Assembly (NCBI RefSeq): GCF_036365525.1
Contig: NC_090387.1
Location: 76,135,300 to 76,199,299 of the forward strand
DNA from: Heterodontus francisci
Taxonomy: Eukaryota
DNA: 64,000 nt
Direction: 5' to 3'
The notes under the pieces are model-generated. The model did no database searches, was not told where the DNA came from, and saw nothing but the letters and a program-made list of their open reading frames with translations. Each line of letters opens with the position of its first letter. Position 1 is the first letter of the stretch. The position numbers were made by a program, and so were the translations under genes. Below are positions 11,283 through 53,385 of this stretch, piece after piece.

Positions 11283-11397
11283 CTTTGACAGTACCTCCGC
11301 TTAAAATAATTCCTAACGATGACAATCAGCACCATTATTATCAATATACCCACTAACTGCCGGGACAACAAAAAGAGGGTAGCAACGTTAGCAGCAC
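11283..11397 (-). pseudogene. Gene B TM exon
   Basis: GAANVATLFLLSRQLVGILIIMVLIVIVRNYFKRRYCQ, donor AAG|gtgaga. The acceptor reads tgtcg instead of tgtcag. Confidence 0.75.
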
Positions 11398-11699
11398 CGA
11401 CAATCACAGAGTAACGGGGATATAATACCGACGGGCATGAATGTCAATTAAACCAGCAAGAAAACCCAGGGATACACGGGATCAGAACTAATCGTTTAAA
11501 GACCATTTAATACAAATACAAATAAAAATATTCAAATAAAATGCTAACAAATGGAACAATTCACAATCTGACCAATAAATCCTCAATATACTAAACGAAT
11601 GCAGTAACATCAAATGCTAACACGTGTTCACAAACGTGTGCTGGCATTAAGAAAAAACGATAAACGAGAGAACGTTTCTGAAAAATGAATTGACCATAC

Positions 11700-11997
11700 C
11701 TTCAAAGTTGCAATTGACATTGGCTGGAGTCTGAAGAGAGACATGACACACTTGGCAGCTGTATGTAGCTCCAATGTGGGATGGCGCCGTATCTTTTATA
11801 ATTCTGCAAATCTCATACAGTCCCACTCTGGTTTGCTGTTTAGTAGTATTGATCCCGGTTCCAATTTTTGTGTTATTCTTATACCAAGTCACATTGAGAT
11901 CTTCAGGGTAAAACTTAGCTGTTTTACAGGAGAATCGGAGAAGTGGATAGACGGAATTCAGACTCAACTAAGTCGATCCTCAGAGGAGTGGGCAGAA
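11700..11997 (-). pseudogene. Gene B C1 exon, frameshifted
   Basis: VLPTPLRIDLVESEFRLST/+1/LRFSCKTAKFYPEDLNVTWYKNNTKIGTGINTTKQQTRVGLYEICRIIKDTAPSHIGATYSCQVCHVSLQTPANVNCNFE. 298 nt versus 297 in gene A; donor gtatgg. Confidence 0.88.
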
Positions 11998-15351: not shown

Positions 15352-15759
15352 AATGGAAACATAAAATTAAACATCTCATTGTACTTATAAATAAAGATAG
15401 AAACAAGGTTTGAAAAGAATAATGAAATATAACAACGATAAACCGCGAATGGCGATAAGTTCACCGATCAAATAATATCGCGCTCCATATATTGTTCTGA
15501 ACTCTATCTTGTAAATACTGGTGTATGTAATCCCCAGGATCAGTATACCTGGAAGCATTTCGGACAATGGAAGTTGATTGAATGCAAGTAAATAAGGGAC
15601 CTCCGATAGTTTGGAGTGAGTGGGTTTACAGCGGACCATCGAGAAATTTGTAAGAGGTTGGTAACGTCACCTGTACAGCAGTGGTTTTAATAAACATGTG
15701 TATTTCCTTTAATAAAGACGCCTTGAATGACAACGGCGGTGTCAATCGTGGTTCCGAAC

Positions 15760-22869: not shown

Positions 22870-23249
22870 AAGAACATTAGATATAGGAACAGAAGTAGGC
22901 CATAGAGCCCCTCGAACCTGCCCTGCGATTCAACAATATAACGGCTGATCTTCTACATCAATTGCACTTTCCTGCCCTATCCCTTTGATTTCCTTTGTGC
23001 CCCAAAATCCATCAACCTCAGTCTTGAATATGCTTAATGACTGAGCATCCACAGGCCTCTGGAGTAGAGGATTCCAAACATTCACAACCCTTTGAGTGAA
23101 GAAATTTCTCCTCCCATTCCTAAATAACTGACCCCTTCTCCTGAGACAATGACCTCACGTTCTAGATTCTACAGTCAGGAGAAACAGCCTCTCAGCATCT
23201 ATCCTGTCACTTCACTCACTATAAAAATGTTACTAGTTTCAATGAGTAC

Positions 23250-34474: not shown

Positions 34475-34597
34475 TCAGCTTCTCTCTTTCGTTGTCACGT
34501 TTACTTCAGCATACACTGCGCTCTTGTCTTGTTTAGGTTTTGATGTTTTCTTGGTATCAGCGTAAGTCAGCTGGTTCTCACCGCTTCTTTGTTTAGT
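34475..34597 (-). CDS. Gene A exon 8, terminal coding TKQRSGENQLTYADTKKTSKPKQDKSAVYAEVNVTTKERS*
   Basis: Acceptor ttacttttacag; SIRP-alpha-like tyrosine motifs LTYAD(T) and AVYAEV; stop TGA. Confidence 0.8.
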   Translation of the reverse strand, partial: TKQRSGENQLTYADTKKTSKPKQDKSAVYAEVNVTTKERS

Positions 34598-37500
34598 CTG
34601 TAAAAGTAATATTTCGTATCACCCGTTAATCTATTGCTCACTCATTGCTTGAGGTAATCGAGGTTTGAAAAAGGCTGCAGTGAAACTTCTTCTCATCAAT
34701 TACCAACTTCAGATTGAAACCGGATTTTGTTTTGGTTTATTTCTCCAGTTTCTCCCTTCTCTGCAAACGATTCATGTTTTGTTCCAATTCCAGGCCCTCC
34801 CCTAAATCTTACTGGTATTCCGCTTTAACCTTCATATAAAATTAGTTCTGATGAAAGGTCACAGACCTGAAACGTTAACTCTGTTTCTCTCTCCATAGAT
34901 GCTGTCAGACCTGCTGAGTATTTCCAGCACTTTCTGTTTTTATTTCAGATTTCCAGCATTATGCTTTTATAAAATTAGTTCTCCTGCTGATGCAGCCCAT
35001 TAAGGGAGCACATTAATACTTCAATTAAAATAGACAAATGAATTTCATACTGGTCTGTTCATGGTATTTGGAATGACGATAATGTAAAGCACCGTTTTTA
35101 AGGCCCTGTTGTTTGAGCCTCGACAGCCAATGTGACCCTTACCCCATGGATGAGGCTCCAAGGTCACATTTTCAGCCGCCTTTCCCCTAACCCCGCCGAT
35201 CTCTGAGACACGAAGGTCAAATATGATGAACCTTGGCTGAGATCAGCTGACACAACACAGTGGTAGATGCAACCTGGGATCTTTGCATTTCCTGCAGCCC
35301 AGAGTCGTTCCACTTAACATTGCTGATATATCAATGAATGATCTGAGCTGTACCTTGGCATACACCGTACTCTGCTCCTTCTATCAGTGTTTCGCATTGC
35401 TCCTGGTCCTGGTTTCATCAGTGGCGTACGGATATTTTTGTTTCGTCTGTAAAACAGATATTTGCCAGTCTAACCAAGTGAGTTTCTTATTTTGTAATTT
35501 GTAATCGCTATTACAGCCAGACGCGAAAAAGAAATGGGGCTAATTTTGACTGACTGCTGTCGTGTAAAACGGATGGAGAGACTCCGTAACCCGTTTTACT
35601 TCTCTCATAGTTTCTATTTTCAACCAAGTCAGCGGGAGAGATACCGATTCGCCAGCACTCATTTTATACTGTCTCATAAAGTCAACACTAACTCGGTAAA
35701 TTCTGTATAAGTTGTTAGAGCTGATTCTGTTATTACAGAGTGTTGATTTTGTGCAGAAATGATTTGGATATCATTCGCGCCAATCGCTCGCCCTACCTTG
35801 GGATAGACGGTGTGCTCTATCTCATATCTACGTTTGGGGGGTCCTTTGTCGTCTCTGAAGTTTAGAAGTTCACTTCGTACTTGTCTAACCTGTAGAAACA
35901 AGATATGAAATACTGATAGCTGAGAGTCGAATACAGCAGCCAGCTACCATCAAGTGGAACTGAGTCTGAAAGTGTCAATATGGAGACAGTAACCTATAAA
36001 ACGGGCTTAATTGCATTCTGTCCACTCACAATGATTTTATTCAATATCTCACCCATAAGGTGAGGAATAATGTTCCAAATACGTTCTTAATCCTCAGTCA
36101 GCACTATCTACTGGAAAACTTTACAGGCGGAGCCTGAAATTGTCCTCGTTCCACTTCCAGTCATTCCATTCCGAACAGGAAATCAGCCGCTGGGACCCTG
36201 GCCATTCAGCCCCTCCCTCCGCAACTACCTAACCCAGGAGTTCCGGGTGCAGGCCAATTAGGTACAGGTAGCATTGTCCCAACTGATACACCAGAGGTGG
36301 GGACGGCACCTGGGACCTTCCGAATCTAAAAGCGGGAGATGGAAATCTGAAATAAAAACATAAATTTCTGGAAATACTCCGTAGAGAGGGAAGCAGAGTT
36401 CACCTTTCAGGTTTGTGGCCTCTTATGGAAGGTCTCAGGTCTGAAACGTTGCCTCTGTTTCTCTCACCTCCGTAATCTGTCTGGTTGTGCTGCACAACGT
36501 ATCAAATAAGGAACTGGGTATTTCCGATTTTTAAAATAATTTGAATTATGAAATGGGAAGTTGTCAGAAGAATATTTTACAGTCCATACAAATATTTATC
36601 TTAAAATCAAGGCATAGAGTACAAAATCAAGGAATTTATGCAAAACCTCTCTAAATCACTGATGAGACCTCAGCTGGAACATTGTGTTCTATTCTGGGCA
36701 CTACACTTTAGGAAAGATGTCAAGGCCTTGGAGAGGGTTCAAAGGAGATTTACTGAATGGTATCAGGAATGAGCGACTTCAGTTATGTTGGGCAGATGAG
36801 AAAATCTACGATTGTCCTCCTTAGAGTAGAGAACGTAAAGGGGAGATTTAATAGAGGTGTTCAAAATTATGAGAGGTTTTGATAGAGTAAATAAGGAGAA
36901 ATTGATTTCACTGGTGGTTGGGCTGGTATCCAGGGACAGAGATTTAAAATAATTGGAAAATAATCAGGGAAGATGAGGATATTTTTAATGCAGCCTGCGG
37001 TTGTGATCTGGAATGCACTGCGTGAAAGGGTGGTGGAAGCAGATTTAATAGTAACTTTCAAAAAGGATATATACTTGAAATGAAAATAAAATGTAGGGCT
37101 ATTGGTAAAGAGTCGGCGAGTGGGACGAAATGAATAGTTGTTTCAAAGAGCCGGCACAGGCACCACGGCCTCTTTCTTTGCTGTGGGATTCTATGAAATT
37201 AAATTAATATCTTCTGGACTGAATGTAAAATGTCTTGCTATTCACCCGCCTCTTTTTGGAAGAAGAAAAACATTGTCACCCTACCCGCTCTTCAGCATGA
37301 CCCGCTTCCTCAGAAATGTTCTTACTGCCTGAGGGAAAGAGAAGTTCACATTGAATAGCTTAATCAGTATACAAGCAAAACAACATCATGTTTTCACTGC
37401 TAAACACAGGTACTGTGTAAAGTAAGGAGACTTGAAGGTACAGATCTCTCTGAAGATATTAAGCAGTACCAGCCATTACAGTGCAGAATGCTGTGTATTA

Positions 37501-40500
37501 CCTTCTGATACCCCGCAGTGGCGTTGCACCAACGGAGGAGACCTTGCCTTTTTGTGAGAGTGTAAAACAGGGTTGTCCAACCTATTCTCGTGACGTTGGG
37601 GGGTGGGGGGGGGGGGGGGGGTTGGGACGGGGCAGCACAACACAATTTTTGTCTTACGTAGGGGGCCGGTGAAACAATTTCGGAAAGGTAAAGGCATTAA
37701 AATTATCTTATTCTTAATCAAAACAACAATAAATGTGCATTTTTGTGAGGAAGCTTTAAATAAGATTAATTTATTGACTTACTTTCTCATCACTATGTTG
37801 GACACTGATTTAGTGAGATACCTGACATTTTTTGCTTGCATAGGTAGTCAATGTTTGTCTGCACACCTGTTGTAGTGATGTGGAGTATTCTGGATGGATG
37901 TCCATCTGTCAGGAATGACCTTGATCACTCTTTCTCCCTCTCCCTGTCTCTCTCTCTCTCCCTGTGACCCCCTCTCTGTTTTCTCCTGCTCTGTGTTGTC
38001 TCTCCCCCGGTGTTGTCCTTGCTGTCTGTGTCCCCCCTCGCTGCACCCCTCTTTCCCTGGCGCCCCCTCTCTCACCGCTCTCTCTCAGCCCCCCTTCTCT
38101 CTCTGCCAATTGCAGAGCAGCTTTGTGGTTGGTCAGGAATAGCGGTTTCCGAGCTTAGCACGACCTCAGGTTTTTTCGGTGCCCGCCGGAAAACCCTGAA
38201 TCTGTCCTAAGTTCGGAAACCGCTATTCCGCCTCGCAGCACCTGTCAGCTGTGAAACTGACGCGATTAAAAAAAAAACCGGTCTGGAAGAAGAAGCCAAT
38301 GAAAAAATTCTTATCTCCGAAATTAGCAGTCACGCACCCCTGGCGAGGATGAGGAACGGCCCGGTACTGTTTACATCCGCTGGCCGAACCTTTGAAGGGC
38401 CGGATCTTGGCCAGCCGGCAGCATGTTGGATAACCCTGGTATGAAACATGTAACAGAGAGTGGGCAATCCACTGTACATCTCATAATTAGAATGGAATTA
38501 AAATCCGGAAGAGATGTAAAATAGGTTGCCTCTACCAATTCGATATCACCCATTTTACATTATGGCAGAAAGACAAAATTTACTTCGAAGTGTTTGCACT
38601 TCAAAATCTGGACCCCAAATGATAGTAAAAAAAATGTGCAACACATCAACAATTCCGGGTGTTGCAAAATAAAAGTGAAAATGTCGAACGAACAGTTGGA
38701 ATGGGAAGGTGAAATATTTGCATTTCAAAATCCGGTATATATGGTCATATTCAACTATCAATCATATAAAGCTCTTATTCTATCAATTCTTTATTCTTCT
38801 ACAATGAATGACGATTCACCTGACCTTTCTCTATTGTAAAAATACAACTGGACCTTAGAAAATAAAAGTATTCGACGGAATAAGAAATATTCTTACCATC
38901 TGATGCCTTTAATTTGAGTCTGGTCAAAATTATTATGAATAATAAAATTGCCAGTATGCCACCTGCACATCCAAAAATCAGCGGAAATTTATTATCAGTA
39001 CCTGCAGGGTCAACAGATAATTGAAATAAGAAACTGTAGAGCACAGCGAAACATATACACAGAGAATCGTGGGTCACGCAAGGGAGGACGAGTTGCAAAG
39101 GTGTCTCTTAGAATAATGGCGTCTACAGTCAGTGGGGCTGGACCCCTTTTATTTCTAAGGGCAGTATATTATAATGTGCACCAAACAATGGCAACTGTAA
39201 TCCAGAAATGAAATTTATGGAGAAAACAAATCCTATTCCATAAAGGCACAGGAAGCTTCTCTCTGCACGTGAGGGTTGTTTATTAAGAGTAAAGGGAGTT
39301 ACACTTTTTTACTTTTTGTTTATTCATTCATGGGATGTGGGCGTCGCTGGCCAGGCCAGCATTTATTGCCCATCCCAAATTGCCCTTGAGAAGGTGGTGT
39401 TGAGCTGCTTTCTTGAACCGCTGCAGTCCGTGTGGGGTAGTTACACTTATAGTGCTGTTAGCAAGGGAGTTTCAGAATTTTGTCCCAGTGACAGTGAAGG
39501 AACAGCAATATAGTTCCAAGTCAGGATGGTGTGTGACTTGGAGGGGAACTTGCAGATGGTGGTGTTCCCATGTATTTGCTGCCCTTGTCCTTCAAGTTGG
39601 TAGAGGTCGCGGGTTTGGAAGGTGCTGTCTCAGGAGCCTTGGTGCATTGCTGCAGTGCATCTTGCAGATGGTAAACACCACTGCCACTGTGTGTCGGTGG
39701 TGGAGGGAGTGAATGTTTGTAGGTGGGGTGCCAATCAAGTGGGCTGCTTTGTCCTGGATGGTGTCGAGCTTCTTGAGTGTTGTTGGAGCTGTACCCATCC
39801 AGGCAAGTGGAAATTATTCCATCACACTCCTGACGCGCCTTGTAGATCGTGGACAGGCTTTGGGGAGTCAGGAGGTGAGTTACTCGCTGCATGATTCCTA
39901 GCCTCTGACCTGCTCTTGCAACCACGGTATTTATATGGCTACTCCAGTTCAGCTTCTGGTCAATGGTAGCCCCTAGGATGTTGATAGTGGGGGATTCAAC
40001 GATGGTAATGCCATTGAATGTCAAGGGGTGATGGTTAGATTCTCTCTTGTTGGAGATGGTCATTGCCTGGCACTTGTGTGGCACGAATGTTACTTGCCAC
40101 TTATCAGCCCAAGCCTGGATATTGTCCAAGTCTTGCTGCATTTCTACATGGACTGCTTCAGTAGCTGAGGAGTCACGGATGGTGCTGAACATTGTGCAAT
40201 CATCAACAAACATCCCCACTTCTGACCTTATGATTGAAGGAAAGTCATTGATGAAGCAGCTGAAGATGGTTGGGCCTAGGACACTACCCTGAGGAACTCC
40301 TGCAGTGATGTCCTGGAGCTCAGAAGATTGACCTCCAACAACCACAACCATCTTCCTTTGTGCTAGGTATGACTCCAGCCAGCAGAGGGTTTTCCTCCTG
40401 ATTCCCATTGACTTCAGTTTTGCTAGGGCTCCTTGATGCCATACTCTGTCAAATGCTGCCTTGATGTCAAGGGCACTCACTCTCACCTCACCTCTTGAGT

Positions 40501-43500
40501 TCAGCACTTTCGTCCATGTTTGAACCAAGGCTGTAATGAGGTCAGGAGCTGAGTGGCCCTGGCGGAATCCAAACTGAGCATCACTGAGCAGGTTATTGCT
40601 AAGCAAGTGCCGCTTGATAGCACTGTTGATGACACCTTCCATCACTTTACTGATGATTGAGAGTAGGCTGATGGGCAGCAATTGGCCAGGTTGGACTTGT
40701 CCTGCTTTTTATGTACAGGACATACCTGGGTAAGTTTCCACATTGCAGGGTAGATGCCAGTGTTGTAGCTGTACTGGAACAGCTTGGCTCGGGGTGCGGC
40801 AAGTTCTGGAGCACAGGTCTTCAATACTATTGCTGGAATATTGTCAGGGCCCATAGTCTTTGCAGTATCCAGTGTCTTTAGTCGTTTCTTGATATCACGC
40901 AGAGTGAATCGAATTGGCTGAAGTCTGGCATCTGTGATGGTGGGGACTTCAGGAAGAGGCCGAGATGAATCATCAACTTGGCACTTCTGGCTGAAGATTG
41001 TTGCAAATGCTTCAGCCTTATCTTTTGCACTGATGTGCTGGGCTCCCCCATCATTGAGGATGGGGAGGCACCTCCTCCAGTTAGTTGGTTAATTGTCCAC
41101 CACCATTCACGGCTGGATGTGGCAGGACTGCAGAGCTTAGATATGATCCGTTGGTTATGGGATTGCTTAACTCTGTCTATTGCATGCTGCTTACGCAGTT
41201 TGGCATGCAGATAGCCCTGTGTTGTAGTTTCATCAGTTTGACACCTCATTTTGAGGTATGCCGAGTGCTGCTCCTGGCATGCTCTCATGCACTCTTCATT
41301 GAACCAGGGTTGGTTGCCTGACTTGATGGTAATGTTAGAGTGGGGGATATGCCGGGCCATGAGGTTACAGATTGTGGCTGAGTACAATTCTGCTGCTGCT
41401 GATGGCCCACAGCGCCTCCTGGATGCCCAGTTTTGCGTTGCTAGATCTGTTCGAAATCTATCCCATTTAGCACGGTGGTAGTGCCACAAAACACGATGGA
41501 GAGTATCCTCAATGTGAAGGTGGGACTTAGTCTCCTACCAATACTGTCATGGACAGATGCAATTGCGGCAGGCAGATTGGTGAGGAAGAGGTCAAGTATG
41601 TTTTCCCCTCTTGTTGGTTCCGTCACCACCTGCCGCATACCCAGTCTAGCAGATATGTCCTTTAGCACTCGGCCAGCTCAGTCAGTAGTGGTGCAACCGA
41701 GCCACTCTTGGTGATGGACATTGAAGTCCCCTACCCAGAGTACATTCTGTGCCCTCGCCACCCTCAGTGCTTCCTCCAAGTGTTGTTCAACATGGAGGAG
41801 TGCTGACTCATCAGCTAAGGGAGGGTGGTAGGTGGTAATCAACAGGAGCTTTCCTTGTCCATGTTTGATCTGATGCCATGAGACTTCATGGGGTCTAGAG
41901 TCGATGTTGAGGACTCTCAGGGCAACTCCCTCCCTACTGTATACCACTGTGCCGCCACCTCTGCTGGGTCTGTCCTGCCAGTGGGACAGGACATACCCGG
42001 GGATGGTGATGGCAGTTTCTGGGACATTGTCTGTCAGGTATGATTCCATGAGTATGACTATGTCAGGCTGTTGCTTGACTAGTCTGTGGGACAGCTGTCC
42101 CAACTTTGCCACAATCCCCCAGATGTTAGTAAGGAGGACTGTGCAGGGTCGGCCTAGCAGTGCGACACCAGACTGATGCGCAACGGCTGCAAAGGTGGCA
42201 AAGTCTTCCATTCTTCAGCGCTAGCATTCCTCAGCAGTGTTACTAGAGAATACCTGCTGTAAGCTTTAGTAGGTAACAAGCAACTTGCATTTATACAGCA
42301 TCTTTAACACAGTAAAACGTCAAAAGGCACTTCACAGAGAATCACCAAACACAATGTTAAACCGAGCCACATAAGGGGATATTAGGAAAGATGCGGATAG
42401 AGTTCAAGGAGAGTCTTAAACGAGAGAGAAATAGGCAGCCGGAGAAGTCGGGAATTTCAAAGTTTAACAGGTAGACAACTGAAGGCACGGTGTGCAGAGA
42501 ACATTTGAACAGAATGATATTTCCACATATTCAATTTAAATTCACGGGATGTAAAGTGACTCTGGTAGAAACGATCCATTTTATGTGTAGTTTCATTTTA
42601 TTTGGCAAGAATTTGACTAGGAATAATCTTTCAAGTTTTGAGCAGTTGCACATCAACCTCCCGTTTCAGATCGCTTCAGGGAAATACTTTCCTTCCTTCA
42701 CCTACTTGAATATTTTATTTCGTTCCCATAAATGTGGCATTGAGAGTAAATACAGTCCACATTCACTCCGTATCCTCGTGTTTGAACAGTGTTCCAGCTA
42801 CATGTCTAATCAGTAAATACAGATTGAAGTAGTTACCAAGCTCCCCGCTGGATATGTTTTCAAACGTACCTCGATTGACGGTGTAGCTGACGCTAGCAGG
42901 TACCAGAAGAGAGATATGAGATGCCAGACAGGTGTAAACAACTTTCTTCGGGGCAGGTTGTGCTTCTTCCAAAAAACTGGAAACTTCATAAAGTTCTTCC
43001 GTGCTCTTGTTTTTCACAGTTTCTATTCCGCTCAGAATTTCGACACCATCTCTTAACCAGGAGATTTCTAAACGCTCCGGGTAAAAGGCAGCCGTTTTAC
43101 ACTCGAGTTTCAGAGATGTCGCTGAAATTCCTTCAAGAGAAACGATTTTCAGGGGGGTCGGGGGAACTTTAAGAGAAAGAGAAAAAGATTTTTTTTTAAT
43201 TTAATGGAGCGCATTCTAATTTTCTACCCTTCTTATGCTGTTACACCCCTACGGTTACGATAGTTTTCGGTGCTGTCGTTCTTTAAACCTCATGTTTGCA
43301 CTTATTTTGCAAATTGTTGTACGGCACACAGCAAAATGACGGGCTGTATTACAAACGATGCACAAAGAAGATGAATCTCCAAGGGCTGGTTACAATCAGG
43401 GAAGCAGACGCCACTGCTCTGAATGGAAGTATCAGATCCTGGCGCGGGATTGGGGTTAGTAGTAATGATCTCAAGTGAGATTCATGTCCGAATATATCGG

Positions 43501-45944
43501 AGTGAGCGCAAACCAGTTCACACGAACAGTGGAATCGTCTCTCCTTATTCTGTAATCATTGCTGGACTAAACATTTTGTGTGTTTTTTTCCAAAATTGGT
43601 CGTTGTTCGAATATTTCATATATTTCAAAATATTGAGAAGATGATGTGTGTAATCAAAATATCTCTGATGTCGATATTGAATACAGACAGGATGTTGTTA
43701 TATGTACAGATTAGAATCCGTGCATTACAACATTGCAACGTCTATGGTGGAGATTTCAGATTGTGCAGCTTTCACCTGAGGAACTTTCTCTAGAGGGGAA
43801 AGAGGGCTGAAACATTTTTCACCTTATGAAAGGGTTATATTGGTAATTATATATCAATGTGTAGATCACAACATCCATACAGAAGAGGGAAACAGAATGG
43901 GAAATCCTAACTCAGAGTGCATGTTTTATATAATTCCAGGGTTTTCGCCTTTCTCCAAGTTCATTCGGTTTGTTTAACACGTTTTGCCTCGAGAAGATTC
44001 TGCTTATATCAGTCCTACATTAACCATTTACTAATGCGAACCAGAGTCCGCTCGATCTACAGTCACTGTTTAGCTGGAAGGACAGGCCCTTTATTAGGTT
44101 TGCATTGTTTTGCCAATTTATTACCATCTCCTTAACATTTTTTCTTTCCACATTTACTTTTCCGACGTTGTAGTAATAGAAAATGATTAAATTAGGGACA
44201 TTATTAACTTGCAAAATTATATTAGCCTTTATTCCAAACAAAGGCTCAATATTCCTTCATTCTTTTACCATGGATCTGCTTTCGAGATAATATGTGATGC
44301 GGTAGAATTGCAGTGGCGGAGGGCGGTGTTCTTTTGATCTCTTGCCGTAATTCCGTGTGGGGTTTGGGAGTGTAAATGGAAATCATGAATGACAAATACG
44401 GGAGCCCAGGCGTTTTTGCAAATGCTCGGTGATATCCTTCCAGTATTTGACGGGTTGAGAGTGTATTAAAGAAAGTCCAATTGGCGTACGACAGAAGTTC
44501 AAACACGGGCATTGGGTAGCTTCACTGTTCAGCAAGCTGGGCTGGAATCCAGCATTGAGGGCAGGATCAACACCTCCCTTCTCACTGAGTTGTAGGAATC
44601 ATTTGTGAAAAGAATTTGGTAACTCAAGCAAGTTATCAAAGGACACAAGTGCACAGCATAAATTGCGGACAGAGGAACAGGAGTAGGCTATTCAACCCCT
44701 CGAGCTTGCTGTACCATTCATTTAGATTATGATTGATTCGCACATTAACTCCATTTTACCGACTTAATTCCTTTCCCTTGAGATCCATACCTGCAAATAT
44801 CTATCCACCTCAAATATCGGACAACTTGGTATAGAAAGTATTAGGTCGGCAATTTTGAGCAGTGGAAAGTTATCTGGTGCGAAAAATACGCACGGCGGTA
44901 GTAGGAAAGTGTTCACCTGAGTTTGTGACCTTGTCGGGGCGGATTAGATGGTCTTTAATGTTGTATAAAAGACTTGACCGAGGTGGTGTTAAAATTGTTC
45001 CCATTGTTGCACTTTGGCACCGTTATTTTGGTGATCTTATCCTGGCCATCTTATCCTATTGATTAATTTCAAATTAAGCTAAAACATTTTTTTCACTACC
45101 TTGGCTTAATAACAATTGTAACTGCACCAAAAGCACTCATTGGGTGAAAAACACTTTGGAGTGTTATGAGGACAACGAGTGGGTGAAATTGGTCTTTAGG
45201 CAGTAGCGCAAAACTGGCGATAGTGAATCGGCGGTCGTTGTACACCGGGGTCAATGGAAAAGAAAGTCCCGAGATGTGTAAAACGAATTTGTTATCAGCA
45301 AATTTTCTTCCAGTGAAATTCCATATATTGCACACAGCTGAAAAAGTCCCACTCCCTGGTACAATGACACTTACCGTACACAGTAAGCTGGGAACCACTT
45401 CCATCTCCAATAGATTCTTGCTGTTTTACTTTACAGTAATACACTCCAGAATCGGCAACACTCGCATTCAGAACATCAAATGAACTACTTCCCTTTTTTA
45501 CATTAAATCGCTTTCTGCTGTCTGGTTCCAGAAACGATTCCTCGCCGCGTTTCCACCAAAAAACATCAGGAGTATTTTGAAATAGGGGGAATGTACAGAA
45601 CATGGAAACATTCGCGCCTCTGACAACCTTCAAGAATTTAGGGAACTGATCCACTTTGTTCGAAGTTACTTCAGCGGCTATTAGAAAATAAACAAGAACG
45701 GTGGTAACAGTTGCATACATTAGATAAAGAAAATTAACTAAGAGAAATAAGAAACAAGAACCATTAAAAACACCAACAAGCGAATTGGAGAAACACAGTA
45801 TGTAATTTTGCAATGCATAACAATTGTAGAATCTTCTAAAATATGATTTAAGCTATTCTGAAACGGCTGCATATACTAACTAAAGGTACCTGGCCAAACA
45901 ATTCCCAAAAGAGCCATGTACTGAACTGAAGCTCTCAACGACAT
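34475..45944 (-). CDS. Gene A: type I IgSF receptor, L-VJ-C1-TM-cytoplasmic tail (SIRP/NKp30-like architecture). Exons 45890-45944, 45375-45677, 42870-43166, 38897-39001, 37285-37328, 35797-35889, 35354-35446, 34475-34597
   Basis: All 7 introns are GT..AG with compatible phases (1,1,1,1,0,0,0). The ORF is open for 319 aa up to TGA TAG in exon 7; skipping the 93-nt exon 7 gives 339 aa ending at TGA 34475-34477. Confidence 0.88.
34844..34880 (+). ncRNA. Minimal type I hammerhead ribozyme motif at the 5' end of a short Penelope-like element (34844-34967)
   Basis: AGUU-CUGAUGA-A-AGGUC(ACA)GACCU-GAAACGUU-AACU: conserved core, helix II, helix I AGUU/AACU, palindromic helix III. Flanked by the 15-bp direct repeat tataaaattagttct (34835-34849, 34968-34982). 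Confidence 0.7.
35354..35446 (-). CDS. Gene A exon 7, cytoplasmic with two in-frame stops: TKQKYPYATDETRTRSNAKH**KEQSTVYAK
   Basis: Acceptor ctgttttacag, donor AAG|gtacag, 93 nt, phase 0-0. Ends TVYxK like exon 6 and starts TKQ like exon 8. TGA TAG at 35386-35381. Confidence 0.75.
35797..35889 (-). CDS. Gene A exon 6, cytoplasmic VRQVRSELLNFRDDKGPPKRRYEIEHTVYPK
   Basis: Acceptor cttgtttctacag, donor AAG|gtaggg, 93 nt, phase 0-0. Confidence 0.8.
36600..37190 (+). mobile_element. Degraded CR1 3' fragment
   Basis: agacctcagctggaacattgtgttctattctgggca..ttggagagggttcaaaggagattt. Confidence 0.8.
37285..37328 (-). CDS. Gene A exon 5, membrane-proximal cytoplasmic GSKNISEEAGHAEER
   Basis: Strong acceptor cttctctttccctcag, donor gtaggg. 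The 44-nt exon converts phase 1 to 0, as the next exons require. Confidence 0.75.
37568..38438. mobile_element. Non-autonomous hAT-type DNA transposon (MITE) in gene A intron 4
   Basis: 14-bp TIRs cagggttgtccaac / gttggataaccctg (13/14 match); 8-bp flanks gtgtaaaa / gtatgaaa (6/8), consistent with a decayed hAT TSD. Confidence 0.7.
38897..39001 (-). CDS. Gene A exon 4, transmembrane
   Basis: GTDNKFPLIFGCAGGILAILLFIIILTRLKLKASD: uncharged hydrophobic span followed by basic stop-transfer residues. Acceptor ccctgcag, donor gtaaga. Confidence 0.9.
39306..42150 (-). mobile_element. CR1/L2-group LINE with near-complete degraded ORF2 (APE endonuclease + RT), in gene A intron 3
   Basis: Frameshifted ORFs with GDFNVHH (APE), LDIKAAFD, GVPQGSVLGP and MFVDD; A-rich 3' end at ~39306-39325. 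Confidence 0.9.
42870..43166 (-). CDS. Gene A exon 3, Ig C1-set domain
   Basis: VPPTPLKIVSLEGISATSLKLECKTAAFYPERLEISWLRDGVEILSGIETVKNKSTEELYEVSSFLEEAQPAPKKVVYTCLASHISLLVPASVSYTVNR: C1 hallmarks LxCxxxxFYP, W, YxCxxxHxxL. Acceptor ctttctcttaaag, donor gtacgt, 297 nt. Confidence 0.93.
45375..45677 (-). CDS. Gene A exon 2, VJ-type Ig domain
   Basis: AEVTSNKVDQFPKFLKVVRGANVSMFCTFPLFQNTPDVFWWKRGEESFLEPDSRKRFNVKKGSSSFDVLNASVADSGVYYCKVKQQESIGDGSGSQLTVY: Cys-Trp-Cys triad, DSGVYYC, J-like GxGSQLTV. Acceptor ttttctaatag, donor gtaagt, 303 nt, phase 1-1. Confidence 0.95.
45890..45944 (-). CDS. Gene A exon 1, signal peptide MSLRASVQYMALLGIVWP
   Basis: ATG at 45944, hydrophobic stretch, phase-1 donor CCAG|gtacct (gene B has the homologous CCAG|gtatac). 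An alternative phase-1 donor gttagt would end the exon at 45881. Confidence 0.7.
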
Positions 45945-46584
45945 GTTGCAAATCAAACGTCAGTTAGCCACTTGGTGTGAATGAGAATGGTAACCTGAAT
46001 GGTTTGGGCAAGAAATGGATTTGATAGATAAATATATGAAACATGTGACCATGCCATGAGGTGTCACATGGCTACGACAACGTATTGAGTCCGTTTCCGT
46101 ATACTTCTGCGTGGGAGTCTGTGAAGTAGGAGGTCACCTGCTGGCTGAAAAGTTTCCATCGAGAAAACAATGCTTTTACAGCCGCTCCCGGCACTTCGAT
46201 CCGACAATCTTCTATTCCAACACCTGTCTTTGATCCTCTTCTCAATCCTGAAAATGACAATTCAGGCCGCAGTCGCGTCCGCCCACACCTCATCTCAAGG
46301 ATTCTTCTTCATGCAGCAGCATGGTCAGTGAGAGGGGCAAATAGTTAGACCTGGGCGCTCAGAGTCTAGTGCGATCGTGATCTCTCCCAGCCTCCATGCA
46401 ACCGGACTTCTAGCAAGAGTCACTGGAATAGAAATTCTAATCAAAAGCCCCGTTCATCGCTCTTTCTCCACTCCAAAGCTGCTGAGGCCTATTTTAGCCT
46501 CATCCAAGACAGAGATGAAATTTTGGATCTGTACCCACATAGCTCAATGTTACAGTTATTCCCCCCACCCCCCAAAAAATGCTT

Positions 46585-47130
46585 TATTCATAACAATTTG
46601 CAAAAATACATTACATAACAGTTCAAAACTGCTCCAATTTCACATTTCGGGAAGTACAATCGAGATCAAATTTATTCAATGCAGAAAACATGAAGTGCCT
46701 CGCAATTCTTGTGATTCCATTTTAAATGCAATGTTCATTGGCATTATATAGCAAAGAACATTTTGTTGCCTACAGCCGGAGGGGTTTTACTCAGGTTCCA
46801 GGCCCTCAGTATACTATGACTGGAGGACCTTACACAGTGCCTTTCCCCATTGAGCCTTTGTAGCGGCTGCCCCAAGCTTTAGTGCATCCCTCAGCACATC
46901 GACCTGGACCTTGGAACGTGCCAGACTGCAACACTCGGTGGTGGACAACTCTTCGCTCTGGAAGACCAGAGTGCGTCCTTCACCCAGCTGATGGTCCTCC
47001 GGCAATAGGTGATGTTTATCTCGGTGTGCGTCCCTGGAAAAGCTCGTAGAGAATAGAGTCTTCTGTCACAATGTTGCTCAGGATGAACCTCGACAAAAAA
47101 CACTGCATCTCTTTTCAGACCTGCTTTATA
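46585..47130 (-). mobile_element. 3' remnant of an L1/Tx1-type non-LTR element
   Basis: Fragments VKDALWS and ECCSLARSKVQ..VLRDALKLGAAA.KAQWGK resemble Tx1-type ORF2 C-termini as I recall them; AT-rich 3' UTR. Confidence 0.55.
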
Positions 47131-47449
47131 AAGTTCAGCAAGCTTGAAATGCAGCAAGGAATATTCACGTTAACTGCAGATGGAACTGAGAGGAGAAACT
47201 GACTAGAATGACCACATTTAACTGATTGTAAGAAGAAAGGTGATTTCAATGGAAGTGAGGCCCATCATTCACAGCTTGTTGTAAGTTCCAGTTTCCAAAT
47301 CTGCTCTGCGTTGAGTTAGTTGATCTGAAGCAGGAGGTGAAAATCATTCAGGAGTCTTGTTTCTAACTGTCGATCAGTTGAGCTGTATGAACCTTTGGTA
47401 GTAGCAGGACGGGGCTAGGCTGTAACTCATTTTCCCCCAAACGTCAGAT

Positions 47450-49065
47450 CCTCTGATTTTTTTGCCAATCACCTTAAATTTCTGCCATCTGATTACTGAC
47501 CCTTCTGCCACTGTGAACCGTTTCTCCTTATTTGCGCTATCAAAACTGTTCATAGTTTTGAACTCCACTATCAAATCTCTTAACCTTCATGACTGTAAGG
47601 AGAACAACCCTAGCTTCTCTAGTCTTTCCATATACCTAATGTCCCCCAACCCTGGTACCATTCTAATAAATCTCTTCTTCACCTCCTAAGTCATTGACAT
47701 CCTTCCCAAAGTGTGGTGCCCAGATTTGAACATGCCTCCAGCTGAGGCCTAGCTAGTACTTTATCAAGGTTTAGTATAACTTCCTTGCCTTGTACGTCCC
47801 TTTTGATGAAGCCAAGGATCCCTGTATTTTTTAACAGCCTTCTCATTTGTCCTGCTACCTTCAAAAAAATATTCATACAACCCCAGATCTTTACTTTCAT
47901 TGAAATCTCCTTTCCCTTTGCAATCAGTAAAATGGGAGTCATTCTCCTCATAGTTCCATCTTTAGGTAGGGTTGGAATGATAGCAGGCCTCTAGAGTGAA
48001 CATAAAAGTCGGTGTCCTTACATCTGAACCAATTAGGGACAGAGTACTGAAAGTTATTCTATTAAACTGCATTGAGTGTTGTGGTTTGGTCACGGATGAA
48101 TATGAATTCACTATAGCTGTTAGTTATATAATAATGTAATAAAACAGATAGTACTCCTATTTGCTCCAGTTTGTTCTGAAGGAGCGAACTGGTGGTAGCA
48201 GGTTGATTGATGAAGCTTGATTGTTCACCTTAATTGTCTTCTCTCATTGAAACCCAACAACTGGCTAGCTCTTCGCTCTTAAATATGAATACAAACATAC
48301 ATACAAGCATATGAATTAGGAGCAGGTGTAGGCCATTCAGTCCCTCAAGCCTGCTCTTCCATTTGATAATTTCATGGCTGCTCTGATTCTGACCTCAACT
48401 CTACTTTCTTGTCTACCCACTATACCCTCTGACTCCTTTGTCAGTCAAGAATCTATCTAATTTAGCCTTAAAAATATTCAATGACCCTGCATCCATTACT
48501 GTCTGAGGAAGAGAATTCCACAGACTAAGGACACTCTGAGAGAGAAAAAAAATCACATCTCCGTCTTAAATTGGAGACCCCCTGTTTTTAAACTGTGTCC
48601 CCTTGTTCTAGTCTCTCCCACAAGGGGAAACATCCTCTCAGCATCCATCCTGTCAAGTCCTTTCAGGATCGTGTATGTTTCAATAAGATCACCTCTCATT
48701 CTTCTAAACTCTAATGGATACAGGCCCAACCTGTCCAACCTTTCCTCATAAGATAACGCCTTCATCCGTGGAATTAGTCGAATGAACCTTCTCTGAACTG
48801 CTTCTAATGCAATTATATTCTTTCTTAAATAAGGAGACCAAAACTGTACACAGTACTCCAGATGTGGTCTCACCAACACCCTGTACAACTGTAGCAAAAC
48901 TTCCTTTCTTTTATACTCAATTCCCATTGCAATAAATGAGAACATTCCACTTGCCTTCCTAATCACTTGCTGTACCTGCATACTAACATTTTGCGATTCA
49001 TGTGTTCGGACACCCTCTGTACCATAGAATTCTGCAATCTCTCGACATTTAAGAATATACTGCTA
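47450..49065 (-). mobile_element. Two CR1 3' fragments (47450-47870, 48290-49065)
   Basis: ORF 48553-48981 RPHLEYCVQFWSPYLRK. Confidence 0.82.
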
Positions 49066-50039
49066 TTATTCCCATAGCAGTATACAATGAAGAACTCCGA
49101 GGGCCATCGCTGGAGCAGGGTCGAAGCTCCACAACACCATTCTGAGTGAGTATTGCAGTTGTTTGTGATGTTTCTCGTGATTGCTACTGAAATTCTGAAG
49201 GCAAGGACAAAGCTGCATGGTATTGTGCATTAGGAAACCTTGTAGTGGGTTACTAAACAGAGAAGAGCACAAGTATAGGCCAGAGATCAAGAATATCTCA
49301 TACAACAGAGAACTTGGATTAATGAAAATAAAATCCTGAATATTGGAAACATGAATTTAAAGCTAAAGTATTGGAAGTACATTAATGACCTCCCAGCATC
49401 TGTAGAAAAAGTCATGAGTCACAGCAGGATTGGCAACTGTAGTTTGATGCATTCCTGGAGATTCGATCATGTGACATTGCTCATGTGATTTTTGATCACA
49501 TAGGAACAAGAGTCAGCTATTTAGCTGTTCCAGCATGTTCTGCCATTCAATGAGATCCTAACTGATCTGTAACCTAACACCTTACACCTGATGATATTTG
49601 ATCACGTGACACTGGCTCACTGTTTGTAGATGTTATTGCATTTACATTAATTGAGTTTCTATCACCAAGCCCTGAATAAAATATTTTATTTTTTGTTTTA
49701 TGGTGATGTGAGTATTGTAATTCATAAATCAAAGAAAGCACTCACAAGAACAGAAACATTTAAGAGTAAAGAATTTTTAAATAAAAGCTGTTCCTGTGAT
49801 GTTTCTACTGTGTCAACCACAATAAAAAAAAATTAGTAAATACTGCTAATTCAACAATAACATAATTAATATAAGTAACTTCTAACTAAAGTTATCATGC
49901 ATTTTATGACGTTTTACAATACATAGCAAGTTATAACAGCAATAAATAAAACAAAATCAAAAGCTAATTTAATTCACTAAGTCCCACACCCCACTGCTGA
50001 GGCCCAGCTTCAGGGAGCAGAGGCTCAGTTCTCAGTTCA

Positions 50040-50487
50040 ACAACACTCAGGTAGCTTGACACTATCCAGGACCAAGCAGCTCGCTTGATCAGCACCCCAA
50101 CCAACACCTTAAAAATTTACTCCCGCCACCAATGACGCACAATGGCAGCAGTGTGTGCCAGAAACAAGAAGCACTGCAGCAATTCACCACACCTCCTTCA
50201 ACAGCACCTTCCAAATCCACGATCTCTACCAACTAGAAGGACAATGACAGCAGACTCATGGGGACACCAGCAGCTGCAAGCTCCCCTCCAAGCCACACAC
50301 CATCCTGACTTGGAAATATATCGCTGTTCCTTCACTGTTGATGGAACTCCCTCCCAAACAGCACTATGGGTGTACCTGCACCAGATGGACCGCAGCGATT
50401 CAAAAAGGCAGCTCACCACCACCTTCTCAAGAGCAAGTAGGGATGGGCAACAAGTGACACCGGCATCCCATGAAATGAATAAAAAAT
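50040..50487 (+). mobile_element. 3' fragment of the same LINE family as 39306-42150
   Basis: Similar to the reverse complement of 39316-39790; ends atcccatgaaatgaataaaaaa. Confidence 0.8.
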
Positions 50488-51179
50488 CAGCGCTAAAGCT
50501 CCCTGACCCCCGAAAACAAAACATCAGCACATATCACAGGCGGCCATGAACTCTCCCTCCCTCCAATGTGTGCTGATTTTTTTCTTGCTCCCTCCCCTAG
50601 TTTCTGTTTCTGTCTCTCCTCTATCTCCAGTTTGTTTCTCTCTTCTGCCAGTTTGTGTTTCTGTCTGTCCCTCTCCATCTCCCTAGTTGTTCTCTTAGGA
50701 CACAGGGTGATTTTCATTGGTGCTCTATCCACCATTTTCAGAAGTGGCAATTAAACGGTGTTTCCAAATAGCGGGGGGTCCAATGAACAGTGCATCAAGC
50801 ACGGTTTCTCCCAAGTCACTTGCAGCAGCGGTCGGGAGACCAATCATCCATTCCGGTGGTTCCCATTGAAAGCGGAGGATTGCCCAGACTTGTCTCGCAC
50901 AGACTTGTCAAACATACAGCCCGCAGGCCATAATCCGGCCGGCTGAAAGTTTCCATCCAGCCCGCCAGGCCTCTGAAACTGACAACGGGCTGCCAGTGGC
51001 TCGCCTGTACGTTAGGCACAGGGATAGGTGGAACCGGTGTAGGAAGGATGGTGAATGCCTGTCTGTTATTGGTCACTGTCTGTGTTGGGTGAGCACTGAT
51101 TGACGGTTCGCGATGCAGACACGCTGGGATCGGCCCTCCCTGCTGGTTTTGCGCATTCAGGGCGGGAATGGGAGCCAGG

Positions 51180-51640
51180 AGCATTGAACCGTGAGTGGCG
51201 AACCATGAGCTGGGAGCAGTGAACCATGAGCGATGTGTGTTGAGTGACGACCTGTGAACCATGAGTGGCGAGTGGCAAACCAGAAGCGGGGAGCACGAAT
51301 CATGACGGGAGGCGGTGAACTATGAATGGGGAGTGGCAAACCATGAGCTGGGAGTGGGGAGTGGTGAACTATGAGCGGCGAGCCCTGAGCTGGGAGTGGC
51401 AAATTATGAGTGGCAAACAAATACTGGGGAACCATGAGACACAGAGAGGGAACAGGGGTAGAGACAGAGAGAGATGGGCGAGAGACAGAGAGGGGATGGA
51501 AGACACACAGAAAGAGGGAGAGACGGGAGAGGGGGAGAGAGAGAGAGCAGTGGGGAGAGACAAACACAGCGAGGAAGGGGGACAGTGACACAGAGACAAG
51601 GAGAGAAAGGGGGAGAGAGATAGACACAGAGAGGGGACAT
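51180..51640 (+). repeat. Degenerate ~21-bp minisatellite (gaaccatgagctgggagtggc-like) followed by a GA-rich tract
   Basis: Repeated aaccatgag/aactatgag units at 51188-51438; (GA)n-rich at 51436-51640. Confidence 0.75.
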
Positions 51641-51694
51641 CCATCTGGAATACTCCGCAACGCTACACCAAGAGTGCGGGCAGAGATTGACGAT

Positions 51695-52087
51695 GAACAG
51701 AGAACAAAGAACAGTACAGCACAGGAACAGGCCATTCGGCCCTCCAAGCCTGCGCCGATCTTGATGCCTGTCTAAACTAAAACCTTCTGCACTTCCGGGG
51801 TCCGTATCCCTCTATTCCCATCCTATTCATGCATTTGTCAAGTTGCCTCTTAAACGTCGCTATCGCACTTGCTTCCACCACTTCCCCCGGCAGCAAGTTC
51901 CAGGCTTTCACTACCCTCTGTGTAAAAATCTTTCCTCGCACATCCCCTCTAAACTTTGCCCCTCTCACCTGAAACCTACGTTCCCTAGTAACTGACTTTT
52001 CCACCCTGGGAAAGAGCTTCTGATTATCCACTCTGTCCATGCCACTCTTCTCTTAACTTTGTCAACCTCTATCATGTCGCCCCTCCA
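51695..52087 (-). mobile_element. CR1 3' fragment
   Basis: ORF 51777-52040 and (agaacaa)n tail. Confidence 0.82.
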
Positions 52088-53029
52088 CAACAAACAATGC
52101 CAGGTATGTCAATAAGTCAGTGTTCAACACAATGACGAGAAAGTAAATCAATAAATTGGTCTTATCATTTAAAGCTTTTTCACAAAAATGCTCATTAGTT
52201 GTTGTTTTGATTCACAGTAAGACAAATTTGTAATGCCTTCATCTTTCTGAAATGTTCTCAGCGGCCTTCTATGTAGGACAAAAATAGTAACGTGGCCGAC
52301 CACGCGAAAAAGTTGGACAGGGGTAGCATTGGCGGGAGTCGAAAGCCATTATCGGATTGGCCAAAACAAAGAAGGGAGACTGACTCGGAGAGAATCAGCC
52401 AGATATATTTCCCTGTGTGTCCGTTTTATCGAATTAAAGCCACGATATTTTTGGAAGGTAAACTGGCAGGCCGGTGTGAACGTTTTATGCATTCTGTAGG
52501 TTGTAGTTTTGCTTCTTGCTGCAAGTGGCAATGTGGAGAAAATCTATGCTTTGGGGTCAAGGTGCACTTGTAAGACTACAATTAATTCGTATAAGGTAGC
52601 GTCGCATTAGTGAAACATCTTTTGTTTTTACACAACGGAGTAAGGCAATTAGTCCAAACAAAATTTTTCTGCATGTAAGCTATTTTTCCAGATTTCACAA
52701 TTGTCCTTCATTTGGAGATTGTAAGCATTTCCGACAGTGAAGGGGCAATCCTGTTAGAATGATAAGCATTTTATTTATGGATATTTTTGGATGCCAATTT
52801 CTGAAGTGGTGGGAAATATTTAAGCACATGACTGTGTCAGATGAAAGGTTACAGCTCAGTTCCTGACTCGTCGGCATCGCCTGTACAAACTCTGAACGGG
52901 GAGCGCAGAATCAACAGCAGCAGCAGTCTTTGATCGCGAGTGCATTCATTCAGCTGGGTAAAAGGATGCTGACTATAATAGAGAGCTTGCAGCTCAAGCT
53001 GCATACAATTTAAACTGAAATAATGATTG

Positions 53030-53385
53030 TAATACAGTGGTAACACTCTCGCCTGTGAGTCTCAGTCCAGAGACTTCAACACATAATCTAGGCTGACACT
53101 TTAATGCCGGACTGAAGTAGTGCTGCACACTCTGTGGTGTCCCATTTCAGATGAATCATTAAAACAAGACTCCTTCTTCCCTCGCAGGTGGATGTAAATG
53201 ATCCTTCCAGACAATTGGAAGAGGAACAGGGAGTTCTTAGTTTCCTAGCCATTATTTATTTCTCATCTAAAATCACTGAACAAAAAATGATTATCTGGTA
53301 GTTATCACATTGCTTTTTATGGGACCCTGCTGTGCAAAAGTGTTCATTTCCCACACAGTGACTGTACTTCATTAGCTGTAAAACG
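53030..53385 (+). mobile_element. Deu-SINE remnant (further fragments 53820-54090, 54640-54840)
   Basis: cagtggtaacactctcgcctgtgagtc..aggtggatgtaaatgatcc. Confidence 0.6.

What the first reader, a model, noticed from the sequence alone, without database searches (positions are those of the whole stretch)
45375..45677. Compact germline-joined VJ domain apparently lacking the C'/C'' (CDR2) region
Seen: only 53 residues lie between the canonical cysteines in gene A (58 in gene B). The J-like diglycine G strand (GDGSGSQLTV; FGNGTGSQLLV) is in the same exon with no RSS. Established: typical V-set spacing is roughly 65-75 residues, and shark VNAR is known for a C'/C'' deletion. Inference: a VNAR-like or I-set-like shortened V domain in a non-rearranging receptor, by convergence or shared ancestry.
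Basis: partly seen in the sequence, partly recalled or inferred. Interest (0 to 1): 0.7.

Follow-up and report, generated by a model that had tools for sequence, protein, structure and literature searches.

The report
Shark receptors with nanobody-short binding tip
This exon encodes an unusually short, antibody-like tip of a shark membrane protein that is encoded whole rather than cut and rejoined; the short shape is shared by a family of about 40 genes found in sharks, rays and chimaeras that likely act as paired on/off immune receptors, and its likeness to shark nanobodies (VNAR) is likely convergent, although common descent could not be excluded.

Summary
Window 45375-45677 is exactly one spliced V exon with 53 residues between the cysteines and a J-like G strand, and no RSS. 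The shortfall lies between strands C and D: 14 residues from Trp to the D-strand Arg, against 18 in this shark's VNAR genes and 25-32 in its Ig/TCR V genes. The AlphaFold model has no C' or C'' strand.

The trait is family-wide. All 40 intact paralogs measured 53-59, as did 63 proteins of other sharks, rays and a chimaera. These are V-C1-TM receptors with ITIM-type tails or an Arg in the membrane segment.

Origin is unresolved. Fold scores tie VNAR, TCR V-alpha and I-set NCAM2. VNAR was never the family's sister in bootstrap trees, but that grouping, like the I-set and SIRP ones, was not rejected.

The scan has noted this family before in this genome, and the short domain in another genome. 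I found no paper describing it in 10 searches.

The parts
45890..45944 (-). Gene A leader exon
   Evidence: tblastn with paralog proteins; GT donor; joint 45677/45890 in a paralog's contig
45375..45677 (-). Gene A VJ exon: Cys-Cys 53, no C'/C'' in the model, diglycine G strand, Asp where J segments have Phe/Trp
42870..43166 (-). Gene A C1-set exon
   Evidence: Pfam C1-set E 7.4e-08; GT-AG joint 43166/45375
38897..39001 (-). Gene A transmembrane exon, no charged residue inside the hydrophobic stretch
37285..37328 (-). Gene A cytoplasmic exon 1
35797..35889 (-). Gene A cytoplasmic exon 2; 6-codon deletion removes the tyrosine motif present in paralog P0003/L148
35354..35446 (-). Gene A cytoplasmic exon 3; in-frame TGA TAG at 35386-35381
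34475..34597 (-). Gene A last exon; 5-codon deletion breaks the ITIM-type motif of the paralog (LTYAAL reads LTYADT)
15504..15558 (-). Gene B probable leader (approximate end)
   Evidence: tblastn with P0098
15031..15345 (-). Gene B VJ exon (58-type; 5' end approximate) with in-frame TAG at 15223-15221
11700..11997 (-). Gene B C1 exon: no AG at the expected acceptor, and a frameshift
11283..11420 (-). Gene B probable transmembrane exon with an Arg in the hydrophobic stretch (activating type; 5' end approximate)
   Evidence: hydrophobicity scan and match to the intact paralog's region L159

Best explanation
The exon encodes the N-terminal domain of a non-rearranging V-C1-transmembrane protein in a large cartilaginous-fish gene family; the domain is predicted to lack the C' and C'' strands, a loss that likely arose from a V-type ancestor independently of VNAR, and it likely binds a fixed ligand through its CDR1- and CDR3-like loops as the sensor of paired inhibitory and activating immune receptors. 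SHOWN: single-exon VJ, no RSS, C1 and TM exons, family-wide 53-59 spacing with the deficit between C and D, ITIM-type tails or TM Arg in paralogs, spliced RNA-type contig of a 53-type paralog. PREDICTED: strand topology. INFERRED: V ancestry and independence from VNAR; no antibody-like V-V pairing; loop binding; SHP-type inhibitory and adaptor-type activating signalling. Gene A itself is likely a signalling-dead or decaying copy, and gene B is a pseudogene.
For: Length: Trp to D-strand Arg is 14 in gene A and 16 in 58-type paralogs, against 18 in IgNAR/NAR-TCR V, 20-23 in the C29 VJ genes, 22 in a lungfish SIRP-like V and 25-32 in Ig/TCR V; Arg to second Cys is 27-28 against 27-29, so the rest is normal. 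Model: pLDDT 91.9, strand C 37-42, one bridge at 48, strand D 55-60; a 58-type model also shows no C'/C'' (pLDDT only 65.7). Family: 48 matches, all on C17; 40 of 46 fetched loci had an intact match, all 53-59; 63 of 64 proteins of other species 53-59, including Callorhinchus. 65 of 66 hits of the full-length profile were family proteins, all from cartilaginous fish. V character: Pfam V-set outscores I-set in 10 of 10 members; J-like GxG bulge; a C1 domain follows. Independence from VNAR: family is one clade (99-100 support) and VNAR its sister in 0 of 1000 bootstrap trees in three analyses that left out the C-D segment; VNAR genes lie on C34. Shortening recurs: two Callorhinchus members reach 53 by a different deletion, in the D-E hairpin. 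Pairing face: the J Phe/Trp position is Asn in 25 of 36 paralogs with a mappable donor, an N-glycan sequon in 24, Phe/Trp in none. Loops: among 7 intact 53-type V exons, 23 of 54 extra residue states fall in 20 BC/FG sites (0 of 20000 permutations as high), pN/pS 1.12 there against 0.37 elsewhere. Tails: 38 of 94 family protein models have an ITIM/ITSM-like motif, 18 have none plus a basic residue at or near the TM (crude scan, isoforms included).
Against: AU tests reject no alternative sister: VNAR p 0.37 and 0.30, I-set 0.38, SIRP-like 0.21, reptile tandem VJ 0.46, C29 VJ 0.32. The mixture-model tree has a starred 96/93 split placing the family with I-set and reptile domains apart from all other V domains (that alignment was two residues out of register in strand D, and the corrected run has no such support). 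Seven VNAR structures fill Foldseek ranks 2-8. Sequence searches with the V exon rank multi-domain I-set proteins first. A two-copy prediction passed (0.50 against best control 0.04), which counts against a strict monomer, though its interface is a G-strand exchange, not the antibody face. pN/pS 1.12 fits relaxed constraint as well as positive selection, and the pairs are not independent. No ligand, cell type or signalling was tested. No contig could be assigned to gene A itself.
Confidence: 0.6

Rival explanations
1. The domain is of I-set descent, or an I-set/V-set intermediate, that gained a J-like G strand and a C1 partner; nothing was deleted. The reptile tandem short-VJ receptors may be its relatives.
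For: Topology equals the I-set's (definitions in PMC8470474 and PMC12051499 passages). NCAM2 Ig1 tops the wide structural search, Z 14.9, rmsd 1.8, 93 aligned. 53 lies within the 5-95% range (44-55) of 684 domains from long multi-Ig proteins. Starred split with I-set and reptile rows; AU p 0.38.
Against: Pfam V-set beats I-set in 10 of 10. No F-strand Asn typical of the I-set, and a long FG hairpin with GxG bulge. The common length is 58, above the I-set range. Family + I-set formed a clade in 0, 7 and 0 of 1000 bootstrap trees. Short domains attract each other in alignments.
Confidence: 0.2
2. The family and VNAR descend from one C'/C''-deleted VJ gene; the family is the non-rearranging cell-surface sister of IgNAR and NAR-TCR V.
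For: Same segment missing, similar length (16 against 18). VNAR structures rank 2-8 in Foldseek and 1-2 in the VIA re-ranking (Z 15.1 and 14.9). Both are confined to cartilaginous fish as far as searched. AU p 0.37 and 0.30. A cell-surface-receptor origin of VNAR has been proposed (PMC4622739 passage citing Streltsov 2004).
Against: 0 of 1000 bootstrap trees in three analyses; VNAR falls among rearranging V domains in the best trees, weakly supported. Only 21-27% identity in structural alignments, no better than TCR V-alpha (24-30%). A NAR-TCR V query found no C17 exon among 87 matches. Different contigs. Equal length alone raises fold scores.
Confidence: 0.1
3. The family is the shark orthologue of SIRP, whose first domain already lacks C'', and has trimmed the C'-D and D-E loops further.
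For: V-C1-TM with paired ITIM and basic-TM forms; many source annotations say SIRP-alpha-like. SIRP-alpha d1 has a C'D loop (PMC2785349, PMC8517548 passages). AU p 0.21.
Against: Mouse SIRP-alpha d1 has 65 residues between cysteines, Trp-Arg 21 and Arg-Cys 32 (read). A SIRP-like V query found no C17 exon among 27 matches at E 0.1. SEP-domain and opioid-precursor genes, recalled as human SIRP neighbours, map to C16, C5 and C3, not C17. One C1 domain, not two.
Confidence: 0.1

Closest known systems
VNAR (IgNAR and NAR-TCR V domains)
   Same: C'/C'' (CDR2) region missing; top fold matches; similar size (60-63 between cysteines in this genome)
   Different: VNAR rearranges by RSS and lies on C34; this family is germline-joined, on C17, 2-4 residues shorter in the C-D linker, and sits on a V-C1-TM receptor with its own tail
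SIRP family (SIRP-alpha, beta, gamma)
   Same: Germline VJ plus C1-set plus TM; paired ITIM and basic-TM forms; d1 without C''
   Different: SIRP d1 keeps a longer C-D segment and a long DE loop (65 between cysteines) and has two C1 domains; no V-level or synteny link found here
CD79b (Ig-beta) and other joined-VJ receptors (CD79, NITR, CD8, NKp30, PRARP; listed in PMC11599192)
   Same: CD79b is the first Foldseek match (TM 0.81; Z 14.3, rmsd 1.7); single-exon VJ with GxG. That CD79b is an I-type fold without C'' is recalled, not read here
   Different: CD79b is a single conserved signalling subunit without a C1 domain (recalled), not a diversified paired family
UrIg and UrIg2 (shark non-rearranging VJ-C1 genes, PMC12227049)
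   Same: Single-exon VJ followed by C1-set in elasmobranchs
   Different: Three to eleven C1 domains, single genes in the MHC or antigen-receptor complex, V most like VH; no ITIM or paired forms described in the parts read
I-set domains (NCAM1/2 Ig1, titin, basigin)
   Same: A/A'-B-C-short C'-D-E-F-G topology; tied fold scores
   Different: J-like G strand, V-set profile preferred, C1 partner

Membership tests
VNAR (IgNAR / NAR-TCR V) | Deletion of the C'-C'' (FR2-CDR2) region | tested here: met
   Trp-Arg 14-16 against 18; models without C'/C'', predicted only
VNAR (IgNAR / NAR-TCR V) | V, D, J segments with RSS, joined by RAG | tested here: not met
   J-like strand in the V exon; no RSS, controls positive in 3 of 3
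VNAR (IgNAR / NAR-TCR V) | Location in the IgH/TCR-alpha-delta complex | tested here: not met
   VNAR-type exons on C34, family on C17
VNAR (IgNAR / NAR-TCR V) | Common descent with VNAR | tested here: inconclusive
   0 of 1000 bootstrap trees, but AU p 0.37 and 0.30
I-set | Split A/A', very short C', no C'', D present | tested here: met
   DSSP on the AlphaFold model; predicted
I-set | I-set sequence pattern (F-strand Asn, short FG turn, I-set profile preferred) | tested here: not met
   V-set above I-set in 10 of 10; no F-strand Asn; J-like G strand
I-set | Descent from I-set proteins | tested here: inconclusive
   AU p 0.38; starred split not reproduced
SIRP | Joined VJ followed by C1-set and a TM segment | tested here: met
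   one C1 here, two in SIRP-alpha (PMC2785349)
SIRP | Paired forms: ITIM/ITSM tail, or basic TM residue with short tail | tested here: met
   Motif scan of 94 family models; Arg in gene B-type TM. Not met by gene A's own tail
SIRP | d1 shape: 65 between cysteines, long DE loop | tested here: not met
   12/21/32 in mouse SIRP-alpha against 12/14/27
SIRP | Orthology by tree or synteny | tested here: inconclusive
   AU p 0.21 with two lungfish SIRP-like domains only; two recalled neighbour markers not on C17; no SIRP C1 sequences were available
SIRP | CD47 binding | not testable with these tools
   needs a binding assay
Non-rearranging VJ(-C1) genes (UrIg, PRARP, NKp30) | Single-exon VJ with GxG bulge, no RSS | tested here: met
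Non-rearranging VJ(-C1) genes (UrIg, PRARP, NKp30) | Linkage to the MHC or a paralogous region | not tested
   An earlier scan note says the cluster lies away from the MHC; not checked here

The most novel reading that the evidence does not exclude
This family is the surviving non-rearranging sister of VNAR: a C'/C''-less VJ-C1 cell-surface receptor existed before the shark-chimaera split, one copy was split by the RAG transposon or recombined into the TCR-delta/IgW locus to give NAR-TCR and IgNAR, and the rest expanded into paired innate receptors.
Probability: 0.1. Interest if true: 0.8.

Novelty: new variant of a known kind. Interest (0 to 1): 0.45.

Why it matters
It is a second, large and old source of CDR2-less V domains in cartilaginous fish, in innate-type receptors. 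If convergent, it shows that V domains freed from a light-chain partner lose C'/C'' repeatedly, and it gives about 40 natural variants per genome of a scaffold shorter than VNAR. If related to VNAR, it would supply the cell-surface precursor proposed for VNAR and make that question testable. The family is hidden in databases under automatic names (SIRP-alpha-like, tapasin-related, B7-H6-like, lambda-chain-like). C''-less V domains as such are known (VNAR, PD-L2, SIRP d1), so the shape alone is not a new fold.

Tried and rejected
Missed intron or mis-read exon: rejected; canonical splice sites and a spliced paralog contig across the whole exon.
One-off deletion in a dead gene: rejected; family-wide and cross-species.
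Rearranged or processed Ig/TCR gene: rejected; introns present, no RSS, own tail.
Classifying by fold: Z scores tie within 1 for VNAR, TCR V-alpha, NCAM2, light-chain V, basigin and CD79b. SIRP d1 was not among the rows shown, which does not exclude it; NKp30 appeared at Z 13.1.
The representative search was crowded by long multi-Ig proteins. The Atlas (run on paralog P0002) gave only generic Ig clusters at 0.91-0.94.
A shark CD79a/b sequence for the trees was not obtained: the ITAM search gave one hit that I could not assign. Trees therefore lack CD79, mammalian SIRP, BTLA, UrIg and PRARP; labels such as C29 VJ, nectin, NITR-like and CD300/pIgR are my reading of motifs, not tested, except the lungfish SIRP-like domain and NAR-TCR V.
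Trees: 69 of 80 collected rows were used (11 near-duplicates dropped for time), 56 in the mixture run; 72-93 columns, too few to resolve the backbone. The first alignment put strand D two residues out of register; re-anchored it on the invariant Arg.
Expression of gene A: no RNA holder was listed on record; the three runs are guessed RNA from one sample. The best contig matches paralog L003 at 17 of 17 differences.
Papers not held, so not read: Streltsov 2004, Radaev 2010, Ohta 2019, Flajnik 2023. Fu 2019 (PRARP) was seen only as a title. Any of these, or their supplements, could mention the family. The elephant-shark genome supplement had no SIRP, NKp30 or 'VJ domain' hit.
Full report
Observation. 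The finding's coordinates are the exact ends of one minus-strand exon, AG at 45679-45678 and GT after 45375. It encodes a domain with 53 residues between the cysteines, 12 before the core Trp and 40 after, ending in GDGSGSQLTV. Pfam scores it V-set 39.4 bits and I-set 34.4 bits. No RSS was found around gene A or gene B, while the scan found RSS at 3 of 3 rearranging V controls. The 30 best V-set loci of the same genome span 64-72, and 684 domains from long multi-Ig proteins have a median of 49. Gene B has 58, but with an in-frame stop in V, no AG at the C1 acceptor and a C1 frameshift: it is a pseudogene.

Where the residues are missing. Anchoring on the family's invariant Arg before strand D, the Trp-to-Arg distance is 14 in gene A and 16 in most paralogs. 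It is 18 in this genome's IgNAR and NAR-TCR V exons, 20-23 in the C29 VJ genes, 22 in a lungfish SIRP-like domain, 25-32 in Ig and TCR V, and 12-18 in six I-set-like domains, several of which had no clear Arg and were placed by distance. Arg to second Cys is 27-28, within the normal 27-29. Relative to the 58-type, gene A's subgroup lost two more residues in BC, two in C-D and one in DE. The AlphaFold model (29-sequence alignment; best pLDDT 91.9, five models 76-92) has strands A, A', B, C, D, E, F and a bulged G, with one bridge residue between C and D. A single-sequence model of a 58-type paralog, of low confidence (65.7), also shows no C'/C''. Foldseek ranks CD79b first and seven VNARs next. 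VIA ties VNAR (Z 15.1, rmsd 1.9, 95 aligned), NCAM2 (14.9, 1.8, 93), TCR V-alpha (14.9, 1.7, 94) and CD79b (14.3, 1.7, 91). Fold alone cannot class it; the literature makes the same point for VNAR and the I-set (PMC8470474, passages; PMC12051499, passages, which also name PD-L2 as a C''-less V).

The family. The V exon has 48 matches in the genome, all on C17 between 71 and 93 Mb (a lower bound). Of 46 loci fetched, 40 gave an intact match: 53 (7), 54 (1), 55 (4), 57 (2), 58 (25), 59 (1); six did not match, being broken or lacking the first Cys. Of 64 proteins from other species, 63 were measurable and all were 53-59 (isoforms included). Sources include sharks of several orders, three rays and the chimaera Callorhinchus, so the short domain predates the shark-chimaera split. 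53-type orthologues occur in Chiloscyllium and Scyliorhinus. Two chimaera members reach 53 by deleting the D-E hairpin instead, so trimming recurs. The full-length profile returned 65 cartilaginous-fish proteins of 66 hits, the other being a teleost IgM; that search is word-limited.

The genes. Gene A reads leader, V, C1, TM in one open frame of 253 codons. Its four tail exons carry three lesions that all hit tyrosine-motif regions: a 6-codon deletion, a double stop 30 bases before the last junction, and a 5-codon deletion in the ITIM-type motif; paralog L003 has these motifs intact. Gene B's type has an Arg in its TM segment. B-type and A-type genes alternate in a duplicated unit; the B-type copy just beyond the window end is frameshifted too. 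Across 94 family models, 38 had an ITIM/ITSM-like motif, 18 had none with a basic residue at or near the TM, 15 had neither and 23 had no TM call. A 628-base contig spliced leader-V-C1 matches L003 at 17 of 17 differences; the runs are guessed RNA from one sample, and none was assigned to gene A.

How it likely works. The position that is Phe or Trp in J segments and packs into the antibody V-V interface (established knowledge) is Asn in 25 of 36 paralogs, usually as a glycosylation sequon, and never Phe or Trp. C', which also contributes to that interface, is gone. Antibody-like pairing is therefore unlikely (inference). Variation among seven 53-type V exons gathers in the BC and FG loops: 23 of 54 extra states in 20 sites, pN/pS 1.12 against 0.37. 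That fits binding through the tip loops, as SIRP-alpha binds CD47 with BC, C'D, DE and FG (PMC8517548, passages), but does not prove positive selection. A second Trp on strand C is kept in 35 of 40 paralogs and is unexplained; it could mark a face-binding site. The two-copy prediction scored 0.50 against a best control of 0.04; runs agree in at least 97% of contacts, partner pLDDT at least 83. The mark was reached by 21 of 30 microbial pairs and 0 of 23 single chains, and on eukaryotes by 17 of 29 pairs (animals 7 of 16; 1 of 7 without a solved relative) and 0 of 30 single chains. Its contacts put strand G of one copy beside strands A' and F of the other, a strand exchange; residues 38-67 are not in the interface. 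Such swaps are common in solved single Ig domains (recalled), so the pass may be from memory.

Origin. With the C-D segment left out, the family is one clade in all three trees (support 99-100). VNAR was its sister in 0 of 1000 bootstrap trees each time and sat among rearranging V domains, with weak support. AU tests rejected no pairing: VNAR 0.37 and 0.30, I-set 0.38, SIRP-like 0.21, reptile 0.46, C29 VJ 0.32. One mixture-model tree joined family, I-set and reptile rows at 96/93, on an alignment later found to be out of register in strand D. V-set beats I-set in 10 of 10 members, and a C1 partner is typical of antigen-receptor kin (PMC2785349, parts 2-3 of 4). I put convergent loss from a V-type ancestor at 0.6, I-set descent at 0.2, VNAR kinship at 0.1 and SIRP orthology at 0.1.

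Against known families. It works like SIRP-type paired receptors (inferred) but fails SIRP's d1 shape (65), and a SIRP-like V query did not find it. It has VNAR's deletion but not its rearrangement or locus. It belongs with joined-VJ receptors (PMC11599192, passages; PMC10751288, passages; PMC12227049, parts 1-4 of 8), none of which, in what I read, describes this family or a CDR2-less germline VJ-C1 receptor. Ten searches found no description; the library lacks most subscription papers, and five papers I wanted were not held. Also seen as passages: PMC4622739 and PMC3149040 (VNAR deletion and origin), PMC10251933 (nothing useful); PMC3964593 supplement search (no hit). The scan's own notes report this family four times in this genome and the short domain once in another genome; these are not independent support.

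Verdict. A real, family-wide, old trait: a new variant of non-rearranging VJ-C1 paired receptors, with a V domain shorter than VNAR. Interest 0.45; 0.8 if kinship with VNAR were shown.

Noticed in passing
window 34475-35889 (-): All three lesions in gene A fall on tail tyrosine motifs while ectodomain and TM stay open; the stop lies 30 bases before the last junction, so the message may escape nonsense-mediated decay (recalled rule). Possible decoy receptor or early decay.
   Followed up: partly
window 1-16500 against 46000-64000 and L161: Tandem duplication at about 85% identity of a unit holding a B-type (TM Arg) and an A-type gene; the B-type V exon at about L161:7480-7850 is frameshifted, so both B-type copies flanking gene A are broken.
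   Followed up: partly
P0108, P0059, P0044, P0029 (turtles), P0140 (viper): Reptile receptors of 3-6 tandem short VJ domains (51-62 between cysteines) with GxG G strands, several with ITIM-type tails, annotated as titin-, NCAM- or pIgR-like. Another CDR2-less VJ family, possibly related (AU p 0.46).
   Followed up: partly
P0100 (lungfish, 704 aa): Annotated protein turtle-like but built of tandem domains whose best solved match is SIRP-alpha d1 (E 4e-16).
   Followed up: partly
P0183, P0192, P0231, P0239 (Callorhinchus): Family members with a 5-residue deletion in the D-E hairpin, a separate route to 53.
   Followed up: partly
P0132, P0192, P0197, P0259: Family models with V joined directly to TM and an ITIM-type tail, with no C1 domain; true V-only forms or skipped exons.
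   Followed up: no
P0096 (Mobula) and L070, L077, L132, L133 (G000:C29): A separate VJ family with intermediate C-D length (Trp-Arg 17-23), tandem in the ray; possibly NKp30-like, not tested.
   Followed up: partly
window 45558-45556 (-), family-wide: A Trp follows the core Trp in 35 of 40 paralogs and 50 of 63 proteins of other species, at a position that faces outward in V domains; role unexplained.
   Followed up: no
window, e.g. 20551-22945, 31647-32957, 39524-42214: Many LINE reverse-transcriptase fragments (read from ORF translations), some inside gene A introns.
   Followed up: no
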